Shown piece by piece: positions 53,800 through 54,809 of a stretch of DNA of 64,000 bases. Position numbers and translations under genes: made by a program. The DNA is taken from assembly GCF_009914755.1 (NCBI RefSeq), contig NC_060926.1. One strand, given 5' to 3'. Below the pieces are notes generated by a model. The model did no database searches. It was not told the DNA's origin and was given only the letters and a program-made list of their open reading frames with translations. This DNA is from the human T2T-CHM13v2.0 reference genome, Homo sapiens. Numbering within the stretch: position 1 is the stretch's first letter; each line of letters starts with the position of its first letter.

Positions 53800-54216
53800 T
53801 TGTACGTGCCGCCAACTCTCTCAGTTTCAGCCACGATGACTTTCCTACTGTTTCCTCAATGTGTCAGGCATGTTCTCACCTCAGCAGCCTTTGCACGTGC
53901 TAATCCCTCTGCCTGAAATATGTTTCCCAGGACATCCAAATGGCTACACCGTCACTTTCTTCAGGTGTCTGCTCAGATACCATTTTATCAGAATTGCCTC
54001 CCTGTTCATCCTATGTGAAAGAATAACACCTTTTTCTCCATTGCTTCCCCACTCCCTTATTATTCCTTATCTTTCTTCCTAACACCTATCACCTTGTGTC
54101 TCTCCACACTAGAAGAGAAGGTCTTAAGGGCAGACACTGTCAAGGGCATTTCTGGAGTCCAGTGCCCAGGGATACATATGGATCTCCCATGTAGAACGTG
54201 CCCAACAAATATTTAT
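53800..54216 (+). mobile_element. L2 3' end
   Basis: cagcctttgcacgtgctaatccctctgcctgaaat...cttcaggtgtctgctcagat...tgtctctccacactagaa...ccagtgccc...caacaaatatttattg (L2 terminal motif). Confidence 0.8.
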
Positions 54217-54250
54217 TGCAGTCAAATGCTCTACCACTGAGCTATACCCC
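54217..54250 (-). pseudogene. Retroposed 5' half of tRNA-Cys(GCA) (tailless tRNA fragment)
   Basis: The minus strand reads GGGGTATAGCTCAGTGGTAGAGCATTTGACTGCA. This is identical to nt 2-35 of cytosolic tRNA-Cys-GCA as I recall it (GGGGGTATAGCTCAGTGGTAGAGCATTTGACTGCAGATC...) and ends at the GCA anticodon. There is no 3' half and no B box. Confidence 0.9.
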
Positions 54251-54299
54251 ATATATATATATATATATATATATATATATATATATATATATATATATA
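54251..54299 (+). repeat. (AT)24 microsatellite
   Basis: Perfect run between the tRNA fragment and the Alu tail. Confidence 0.95.
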
Positions 54300-54300
54300 A

Positions 54301-54601
54301 TTTTTTTTTCTTTTTTTGAGATGGAGTTTCACTCTTGTTGCCCAGGCTGGAGTGCAAAGGCACGATCTCAGCTCACTGCAACCTCTGCCTCCCAGGTTCA
54401 AGCGATTCTCCTGCCTCAGCCTCCTGAGTAGCTGGGATTATAGGCACCTGCTACCACGCCCAGCTAATTTTTTGTATTTTCAGTAGAGATGGGGTTTCAC
54501 TATTTTGGCCAGGCTGGTCGCAGATTCCTGACCTCAGGCGATCTACCTGCCTTGGCCTCCGAAAGTGCTGGAAATACAGGTGTGAGCCAACACCCCCAGC
54601 C
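54301..54601 (-). mobile_element. Alu (AluSq-like)
   Basis: gagatggagtttcactcttgttgcccaggctgg ... gtgagccaacacccccagcc. Confidence 0.95.
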
Positions 54602-54809
54602 CCAAACAAATATTTATGGAATAAAGGATTATTATTATTCTCAAATTTCACTAGATCAATAAGTGAAAAATGGTATCTTACTGTGGTTTCAATTCACATC
54701 AATTTAATTGCTAATTAAAATGAATTATTTTCATTATTTTTGGCCATTTATTTTTCTCCTTTTGCAAATTATTCATTTCCTTAGTTCATTTTCTATTGAG
54801 GTGTTTGTC

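What the first reader, a model, noticed from the sequence alone, without database searches (positions are those of the whole stretch)
54204..54617. Chimeric retroposon: Alu + (TA)n + 5' tRNA-Cys half inside one target-site duplication
Seen: the minus strand reads TSD - full AluSq-like element - A tail - (TA)24 - GGGGTATAGCTCAGTGGTAGAGCATTTGACTGCA - TSD. The same 13-mer AACAAATATTTAT (54204-54216 and 54605-54617) brackets both pieces, and I see no second TSD between them. The 34-mer stops exactly at the anticodon and has no poly-A. Established: L1 machinery makes tailless retrocopies of tRNA fragments and template-switch chimeras (U6/L1 type). Anticodon-loop cleavage gives 5' tRNA halves, and the 5' Cys half carries a terminal oligo-G motif. 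Inference: the pre-insertion L2 end was probably ...TATTTATTG/AA, a degenerate L1 endonuclease site whose TG could pair with the fragment's terminal CA. L1 RT would have primed on the 5' tRNA-Cys half (or internally at the anticodon loop) and then switched to an Alu RNA. That puts the small RNA 3' of the SINE, the reverse of the usual U6-first chimeras, and may be a fossil of a germline tRNA half in an L1 RNP.
Basis: partly seen in the sequence, partly recalled or inferred. Interest (0 to 1): 0.8.

Follow-up and report, generated by a model that had tools for sequence, protein, structure and literature searches.

The report
Alu fused to tRNA-Cys fragment retrocopy
An old Alu repeat and the first half of a cysteine tRNA sit together inside one pair of insertion scars, most likely copied into the genome in a single event; it is a neutral fossil, but two more like it exist in this genome.

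Summary
On the minus strand, 54617..54204 reads: 13-nt repeat, full-length Alu, A-tail, pure (AT)24.5, then a 34-mer identical to the first 34 bases (G2 to anticodon A36) of ARAGORN-called tRNA-Cys-GCA genes, then the same 13-mer.

In this genome the 34-mer (up to 3 mismatches) has 70 matches: 27 gene-like and 43 3'-truncated fragments.
- 33 of 43 fragments carry a clear target-site duplication (TSD) directly at their own 5' end.
- 7 of 43 have a weak one.
- 3 of 43 have none; there the second TSD copy lies beyond a full-length, same-sense Alu plus A-tail.

The three are this locus, chr6:150227610 and chr2:128791285. The other two have only 3-4 nt between A-tail and tRNA, so no second TSD can be hidden.

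This recurrence supports one retrotransposition event: L1 reverse transcriptase starts on the tRNA, then continues on an Alu RNA. I could not test orthologous primate loci.

Not supported: the proposed TG/CA priming pairing. The class fits internal priming in the anticodon loop, sometimes of leader-bearing pre-tRNA, better than pre-cut tRNA halves.

Verdict: a new variant of known template-switch chimeras and tailless retropseudogenes, with moderate interest.

The parts
54605..54617 (-). 5' copy of the target-site duplication (ATAAATATTTGTT on the minus strand). It extends to 15/16 if 54602-54604 are included.
   Evidence: only two copies in the window, none in 100 shuffles.
54318..54601 (-). 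Full-length dimeric Alu body, same sense as the tRNA piece.
   Evidence: two Metazoa_SRP matches on the minus strand; aligns end to end with 35 other Alus; non-CpG divergence 16/236, CpG columns changed 21/48.
54300..54317 (-). Alu A-rich tail (A7 G A9 T on the minus strand).
   Evidence: sequence read directly.
54251..54299 (.). Pure (AT)24.5 microsatellite between the Alu tail and the tRNA piece. Taken as a secondary expansion at the junction.
   Evidence: TRF, 100% matches, 0 indels. The two sister loci have no such repeat.
54217..54250 (-). tRNA-Cys-GCA 5' part, from G2 to the last anticodon base A36. The first G of the gene is missing or changed, and there is no A tail.
   Evidence: 34/34 identity to five ARAGORN-called tRNA-Cys genes; no homology to the tRNA beyond GCA.
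54204..54216 (-). 3' copy of the target-site duplication. It directly abuts the tRNA end and marks where reverse transcription was primed.

Best explanation
One L1-mediated retrotransposition event, roughly AluS-age, produced a two-part retrocopy.
1. L1 endonuclease nicked the window's plus strand at ...AACAAATATTTAT|GG.
2. ORF2p reverse transcriptase began on a tRNA-Cys-GCA molecule at anticodon base A36. This was either a real RNA 3' end or a start inside the anticodon loop.
3. It copied the 35-36 nt to the tRNA 5' end. Instead of joining the upstream DNA, it continued on the 3' end of the poly(A) tail of an Alu RNA in the same particle and copied that to its 5' end.
4. Second-strand repair left one 13-16-nt duplication around both pieces.
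5. The (AT)24.5 repeat grew later at the tail/tRNA junction.

Shown: the anatomy, the identity of the pieces, the single bracket, and the recurrence at two other loci. Inferred: the order of copying, the template switch (rather than RNA ligation), and the late origin of the AT repeat. The element is a neutral fossil. It lacks the 3' half of the tRNA and is not called as a tRNA gene.
For: 1. A single 13/13 (15/16) repeat brackets Alu + tail + AT repeat + tRNA piece.
2. The tRNA piece has no repeat of its own. Its best adjacent direct repeat scores 5, whereas 33 of 43 tRNA-Cys fragments in this genome score 9-18 within 0-9 nt of their 5' end. The reversed-flank control reaches 9 or more in 5 of 43.
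3. Two further loci have the same architecture.
- chr6:150227610(-): CATTATGACATACT | full Alu | A16 | GAT | tRNA-Cys to GCA | (CA)TTATGACATACT, 14/14.
- chr2:128791285(-): AAGAAATATCTGAGGCTG | Alu | A11 | GGAG | tRNA-Cys to GATC | AAGAAATACCTGAGGCTG, 17/18.
With only 3-4 nt between tail and tRNA, no middle repeat can be hidden there.
4. The three loci differ in tRNA variant, junction bases and TSD, so they are independent events.
5. Ages agree. Alu non-CpG divergence is 16/236, 17/234 and 19/221. tRNA mismatches are 0/34, 2/34 and 3/34.
6. Contrast cases: a tRNA-Gln fragment that landed beside a long A-tail (L123) and a tRNA-Cys fragment inside an Alu linker (L032) each keep their own adjacent TSD.
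7. In print, consecutive insertions at one site give a target-site triplication, while template switching gives one TSD (Weber 2006, PMC1687206, passages). Full-length sense Alu fused 5' of an L1 3' piece is a described chimera type (Law and Burns 2026, section read).
Against: - No orthologous empty or half-filled site could be examined, so co-insertion is not shown directly.
- At this locus the 49-bp AT repeat sits exactly where a middle TSD copy would lie. A short copy (ATAAATAT) could have been absorbed into it.
- This locus has 0 nt of overlap between the tRNA end and the TSD, unlike 39 of 43 fragments.
- The tRNA piece is 0/34 diverged, whereas about 2.3 changes are expected at the Alu's non-CpG rate (P about 0.09), so it might be younger than the Alu.
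- The same junction search for five other tRNA families (Lys-TTT, Ala-TGC, Phe-GAA, Thr, Gln-CTG) found no clean further example.
- Template switch and prior RNA joining cannot be told apart from sequence.
Confidence: 0.72

Rival explanations
1. Two consecutive insertions at one site. Either the Alu came first and a tailless tRNA-Cys retrocopy later landed exactly at the tail/TSD boundary, or the reverse. The middle repeat copy was later swallowed by the growing AT microsatellite.
For: - The AT repeat lies exactly where the middle copy would be, and the first 8 nt of the TSD (ATAAATAT) are one change away from (AT)4.
- The tRNA piece is 0/34 diverged, against about 6.8% for the Alu.
- Consecutive hits at one site with target-site triplication are documented for snoRNA retrocopies and Alu (PMC1687206).
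- A-tails do attract tailless copies (L123).
Against: - The second event would have to use the same nick to within 1 nt.
- It would need a TSD of 8 nt or less, whereas clear TSDs in this class are 9-21 nt with a median of 15. Otherwise the TTTGTT part must have been lost without trace.
- The two sister loci show the same layout with no room for a middle copy.
Confidence: 0.12
2. Still a single insertion, but of an RNA that was already a fusion. Either the Alu RNA 3' end was ligated to the 5' end of a tRNA-Cys or its fragment, or an Alu transcript read through into a tRNA-Cys sequence lying just downstream at a source locus.
For: - RNA ligation before reverse transcription is one of the two mechanisms discussed for U6/L1 chimeras (Law and Burns, passages).
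- Sequence alone cannot separate this from template switching.
Against: - The three loci have different junctions (AT repeat, GAT, GGAG) and different tRNA variants, so a common read-through source locus is excluded.
- No other copy of a (TA)n-tRNA-Cys junction appears among the 70 matches.
- From recall, the ligation described for U6/L1 puts the small RNA 5' of its partner, the opposite order to this one.
Confidence: 0.1
3. Endonuclease-independent capture of a tRNA-derived cDNA at a DNA break at the edge of a fragile AT repeat, behind an existing Alu.
For: - Long pure AT repeats are break-prone (recalled).
- Endonuclease-independent insertions lack TSDs and are often 3'-truncated (mentioned in PMC2912911, passages).
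Against: - The break would have to fall exactly at the first base of the Alu's 3' TSD, leaving no AT units 3' of the tRNA piece.
- The sister loci have no AT repeat at all.
Confidence: 0.03

Closest known systems
Tailless retropseudogenes of tRNA (Schmitz et al. 2004, recalled and cited by others, not held; Noll et al. 2015, PMC5322556, sections 15-16 read)
   Same: - A tRNA copy 3'-truncated in the anticodon loop, with no A tail and a TSD abutting its 3' end.
- 40 of the 43 tRNA-Cys fragments in this genome have no Alu between them and their 5' flank. Of these, 33 carry a clear adjacent TSD and 7 a weak one.
   Different: - Here the 5' TSD copy is not next to the tRNA but beyond a full Alu.
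- The word 'chimer' does not occur in the main text of Noll et al..
- A pipeline that demands TSDs at both ends of the tRNA copy would miss these loci (inference).
U6/L1 and related template-switch chimeric retrogenes (Buzdin et al. 2002, 2003, not held; Doucet et al. 2015, PMC4476161, passages read)
   Same: Two unrelated transcripts fused head-to-tail in the same sense inside one TSD. The 5' partner is full length.
   Different: - In those chimeras the small RNA is the 5' partner (copied second), and the 3' partner is a polyadenylated L1, Alu or mRNA.
- Here the small RNA is the 3' partner (copied first) and has no A tail, and the SINE is the 5' partner.
Alu/LINE-1 and tRNA/LINE-1 chimeric insertions (Law and Burns, Cell Genomics 2026, PMC13174262 / bioRxiv 10.1101/2025.02.02.635956; passages and section 31 read)
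   Same: - Alu/L1: a full-length sense Alu lies 5' of the first-copied template.
- tRNA/L1: the tRNA part is typically the 5' half (positions 1-37).
   Different: - Their catalogue is anchored on a 3' LINE-1 segment.
- Their tRNA halves are mostly antisense to the L1 and explained by twin priming.
- No Alu + tRNA combination is described in the passages I read.
- Their supplementary tables were not examined.
Target-site triplication by consecutive retroposition (Weber 2006, PMC1687206, passages read)
   Same: A small-RNA retrocopy and an Alu in tandem at one site.
   Different: Those cases show three copies of the target site. Here two copies are visible, and at the sister loci there is no room for a third.

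Membership tests
tRNA-Cys-GCA derived sequence | Sequence identity to bona fide tRNA-Cys-GCA genes | tested here: met
   34/34 identity to five loci that ARAGORN calls tRNA-Cys (gca) in the same genome.
tRNA-Cys-GCA derived sequence | Complete cloverleaf, that is, a functional tRNA gene | tested here: not met
   ARAGORN finds 0 genes in the window. Rfam RF00005 scores 21.3 bits, below the gathering score of 29. Homology ends at the anticodon.
Tailless retropseudogene | 3'-truncated small-RNA copy without an A tail, with a TSD directly after its 3' end | tested here: met
   ...GACTGCA | ATAAATATTTGTT.
Tailless retropseudogene | Second TSD copy directly at the 5' end of the small-RNA copy | tested here: not met
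   The best adjacent repeat scores 5, against 9-18 in 33 of 43 fragments. The matching copy lies 354 nt upstream, beyond the Alu.
Tailless retropseudogene | Overlap (microhomology) between the RNA 3' end and the target site | tested here: not met
   The overlap is 0 nt here. It is 1-6 nt in 39 of 43 fragments, including the two sister loci (2 and 4 nt).
Template-switch chimeric retrogene | Two transcripts in the same sense within one TSD, with no internal TSD | tested here: met
   Caveat: the AT repeat could mask a short internal copy at this locus. The sister loci are clean.
Template-switch chimeric retrogene | The 3' (first-copied) partner is a polyadenylated L1, Alu or mRNA | tested here: not met
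   The 3' partner is a tailless tRNA fragment.
Template-switch chimeric retrogene | Both parts appear simultaneously in phylogeny | not testable with these tools
   No primate genomes are on hand. The genome search states that the genome has no relatives here.
L1 endonuclease-dependent insertion | TSD of about 7-20 bp and a nick at a TT|AAAA-like site | tested here: inconclusive
   The TSD is 13-16 bp (met). In element orientation the site reads TTCC|ATAAAT. That is pyrimidines followed by an A-rich stretch but not the canonical motif. CC|A sites also occur in simple copies L010, L027 and L029.
Nuclease-cut 5' tRNA half (tiRNA type) | A fixed 3' end at a known cleavage position of the anticodon loop, derived from mature tRNA without a leader | tested here: inconclusive
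   - This copy ends at A36.
- The class shows variable ends, and several copies carry leader-like 5' bases (AAGGA before G1 in L041, L100 and L089; ggcaga in L003, resembling the upstream of a chr17 gene).
- Here the AT repeat hides any leader.
- The preferred cleavage positions are recalled, not tested.

The most novel reading that the evidence does not exclude
Alu-poly(A)-tRNA-Cys composites are a recurrent class that I did not find catalogued. In these 'reverse-order' L1 chimeras, ORF2p starts on a non-adenylated (pre-)tRNA and then jumps onto the poly(A) end of an Alu RNA. That would be fossil evidence that tRNA-Cys and Alu RNA sat together with ORF2p at the target site. It would also show that switching onto a poly(A) 3' end is a regular outcome once a short template runs out (3 of 43 tRNA-Cys fragments here). 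Two of the three events lie 25 kb apart on the same strand, which might mark a local hot spot.
Probability: 0.35. Interest if true: 0.65.

Novelty: new variant of a known kind. Interest (0 to 1): 0.5.

Why it matters
If these are single events, L1 reverse transcriptase can initiate on a tailless tRNA and then move to an Alu RNA. That reverses the partner order known from U6/L1 chimeras.
- It bears on which RNAs share the L1/Alu particle at the moment of integration.
- It bears on how often the enzyme switches templates at the end of a very short RNA.
- It bears on how composite SINEs could arise.

Practical points:
- The 34-mer is one of eight perfect genomic copies, so 5' tRNA-Cys fragment reads from small-RNA sequencing will multimap here.
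- Searches for tailless retrocopies that demand TSDs at both ends of the small RNA will miss such composites (inference).
- For the host locus (about 11.4 kb upstream of the HS6ST1 start, by the annotation supplied) nothing suggests a function.

Tried and rejected
- **Papers not held.** Schmitz 2004 and Buzdin 2003 could not be read. What I say of them is recalled or taken from papers that cite them.
- **Other tRNA families.** I searched for A8 followed within 20 nt by a 24-mer of the tRNA, allowing up to 2 mismatches.
  - Families searched: Lys-TTT, Ala-TGC, Phe-GAA, Thr and Gln-CTG.
  - The hits were genes, simple tailless copies with their own TSD (L114, L115, L116, L123), and an Alu inserted beside a full tRNA-Lys pseudogene (L087).
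  - One case was ambiguous: L117, a 5'-truncated Alu plus a Gln-like fragment with no convincing TSD.
  - This search is insensitive and has no count of fragments per family, so it does not show that the class is limited to tRNA-Cys.
- **Read-through from a common source locus.** Rejected, because the junctions and tRNA variants differ.
- **Duplication linking the two chr2 loci.** Rejected, because the TSDs, tRNA end points and Alu substitutions differ.
- **Rfam microRNA and viral-UTR hits in the region** (mir-1268, mir-1285, mir-297, Pestivirus 3'UTR and others). All are below gathering scores and are explained by the Alu body or the AT repeat.

Full report
**What is there**

On the minus strand the region 54617..54204 reads as follows:
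- ATAAATATTTGTT, then three extra bases (TGG).
- A full-length dimeric Alu.
- A tail, A7 G A9 T.
- A pure (AT)24.5 repeat at 54251-54299.
- GGGGTATAGCTCAGTGGTAGAGCATTTGACTGCA.
- ATAAATATTTGTT again.

The 13-mer occurs only at these two places in the 64-kb window, even with one mismatch allowed. None was found in 100 shuffles. The repeat extends to 15/16.

The Alu is confirmed by two Metazoa_SRP matches on the minus strand. It also aligns end to end with 35 other Alus taken from the window and fetched loci.

**Identity of the 34-mer**

A search of the window's own genome gave eight perfect copies. Five lie in loci that ARAGORN calls tRNA-Cys (gca), where the 34-mer is followed by gatcaagaggtcc.... 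So the 34-mer is G2 to A36 of tRNA-Cys-GCA and stops at the last anticodon base.

The window itself holds no tRNA gene by ARAGORN. The Rfam tRNA model stays below its gathering score (21.3 against 29 bits).

**The class it belongs to**

With up to 3 mismatches the 34-mer has 70 matches in the genome, and I obtained flanks for all 70.
- By ungapped extension of homology past the anticodon, 27 are gene-like (26 plus L047).
- The other 43 are 3'-truncated fragments.

The fragments end at A36, at GA, or up to about 10 nt further. In 39 of 43 the downstream direct repeat overlaps the last 1-6 tRNA bases. For three of these the script's best hit was a distant chance match, and I judged the adjacent repeat by eye.

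A stricter scan confined to the 45 nt upstream of each fragment gave these results:

| Adjacent direct repeat | Fragments (of 43) |
|---|---|
| Score 9 or more (lengths 9-21 nt, median 15) | 33 |
| Weak, score 6-8 | 7 |
| None (scores 5, 3, 5) | 3 |

A control using the reversed upstream flank reached score 9 or more in 5 of 43.

The 33 clear cases and the 7 weak ones are ordinary tailless retropseudogenes, as described in print (Noll et al. 2015, sections 15 and 16 read; Kojima 2010, passages).

**The three exceptions share one architecture**

For the three fragments without an adjacent repeat, a 13-, 14- or 18-nt repeat is found 354, 304 and 282 nt upstream. In each case it lies exactly at the 5' edge of a full-length, same-sense Alu whose A-tail leads into the tRNA piece.
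- This locus.
- chr6:150227610(-), read...aat CATTATGACATACT | a GGCCGGGCGCGG...Alu...GTCTC A16 | GAT | tRNA-Cys to GCA | TTATGACATACT.
- chr2:128791285(-), read: AAGAAATATCTGAGGCTG | cactgGGCGCGGTGG...Alu...CATCTC A11 | GGAG | tRNA-Cys to ...GCAGATC | AAGAAATACCTGAGGCTG.

In both sister loci only 3-4 nt separate tail and tRNA, so a hidden middle repeat is excluded. The three loci differ in TSD, junction bases, tRNA end point and tRNA variant, so they are independent events.

**Why a single event is the best reading**

- Consecutive insertions at one site leave three copies of the target (Weber 2006, passages), whereas a template switch leaves one pair.
- Contrast cases in this genome behave as expected for separate insertions and keep their own adjacent TSD. 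A tRNA-Gln fragment beside a long A-tail (L123) has its own 12-nt TSD. A tRNA-Cys fragment inside an Alu linker (L032) has its own 11-nt TSD.
- The ages of the two parts agree:

| Locus | Alu non-CpG divergence | tRNA mismatches |
|---|---|---|
| This locus | 16/236 | 0/34 |
| chr6 | 17/234 | 2/34 |
| second chr2 | 19/221 | 3/34 |

- Because the 3' TSD abuts the tRNA end, reverse transcription was primed there. The tRNA was copied first and the Alu second, through its poly(A) end.
- This matches the published Alu/LINE-1 chimeras, with the L1 3' piece replaced by a tailless tRNA (Law and Burns, section 31 read).

**What weakens it at this locus**

- The AT repeat occupies the place of a possible middle TSD, and ATAAATAT is one change from (AT)4.
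- This locus shows 0 nt of overlap between tRNA end and TSD.
- 0/34 tRNA changes has a probability of about 0.09 at the Alu's non-CpG rate.
- No orthologous locus could be examined, because the tools hold no primate genomes.

I put the single-event reading at about 0.8 overall. That splits into 0.72 for a template switch and 0.1 for a pre-formed fused RNA. Sequential insertion gets about 0.12.

**tRNA half or loop priming?**

The surviving flank reads TATTTAT|GGAATAAAGG, and the junction carries the full complement of ...TGCA after the full 13-mer.
- Across the class, the variable end points and the near-universal 1-6-nt overlap with the anticodon-loop bases (A, CA, CAGA...) point to annealing of the nicked target to the loop of an intact RNA.
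- Several copies carry extra 5' bases that look like pre-tRNA leaders.
  - AAGGA precedes G1 in L041 and L100 and, after A11, in the chr2 sister locus.
  - The 20-mer AAGGAG+GGGGTATAGCTCAG has 33 matches at up to 2 mismatches, against 8 for the control.
  - L003 carries ggcaga, resembling the upstream of a chr17 gene.
- This agrees with the internal-priming view in Noll et al. and with nuclear pre-tRNA templates (Doucet 2015, passages).
- For this one locus the 0-nt overlap leaves a pre-cut RNA ending at A36 possible. Any leader is hidden by the AT repeat.

**Is it in print?**

I ran four full-text searches and read passages of seven held papers (one of them in both its preprint and its published version).
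- The papers describe tailless tRNA retrocopies, U6/L1 and U6/Alu chimeras, Alu/L1 chimeras and antisense tRNA-half/L1 chimeras.
- None describes an Alu 5' of a sense tRNA fragment within one TSD.
- Schmitz 2004 and Buzdin 2003 are not held, and no supplementary tables were read, so an earlier mention cannot be excluded.

**Generality**

A narrow junction search for five other tRNA families gave no clean example. The search requires an A8 run and a near-exact 24-mer, so this is weak negative evidence.

**Verdict**

The co-insertion idea is supported and extended to three loci. The mechanistic details are partly corrected. This is a new variant of known L1 by-products without evident function, of moderate interest to retrotransposon specialists.

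Noticed in passing
G000:C2:128791285-128791318 (minus), locus L089; about 15.3 kb beyond the window's end: The third Alu + tRNA-Cys composite lies only 25,035 bp from the one in the window, on the same strand. The event is independent: it has a different TSD, tRNA variant and end point. With 3 such loci in 3.1 Gb, a pair this close has a chance of about 5e-5 (my arithmetic). Unexplained.
   Followed up: partly
Loci L041, L100, L089, L104; genome-wide pattern search: Many dispersed tRNA-Cys copies are preceded by the same AAGGA(G) bases (33 matches against 8 in the control). This suggests a prolific source gene whose pre-tRNA leader was copied. The chr7 tRNA-Cys cluster holds similar CAGGAG/CAGGAA upstream bases.
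   Followed up: partly
Locus L003 (G000:C5:132700654): A perfect 34-mer copy extends to GATC, with 7 extra 5' bases (ggcagaa) that resemble the upstream of a chr17 tRNA-Cys gene (gccggcagag, L006). It is flanked by a 15-nt A-rich TSD.
   Followed up: no
Locus L117 (G000:C4:5457745): A 5'-truncated Alu with an A-rich tail is followed by a tRNA-Gln-like fragment. I found no convincing TSD for either reading, so this is a possible further composite or a chance neighbour.
   Followed up: partly
Locus L032 (G000:C7:2653706) and L114 (G000:C1:35723096): Tailless tRNA-Cys and tRNA-Thr fragments are inserted inside Alu elements at A-rich stretches. Each has its own adjacent TSD.
   Followed up: no
window 54415-54466, 54489-54549, 54339-54398: Rfam matches to mir-1268, mir-1285 and mir-3135, all below their gathering scores. 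They fall inside the Alu body and reflect Alu-derived microRNA families, not separate genes.
   Followed up: no
window 54800-54900: A T-rich (TTTA)-type run leads into another Alu in antisense orientation, starting near 54842 about 225 bp from the composite.
   Followed up: no
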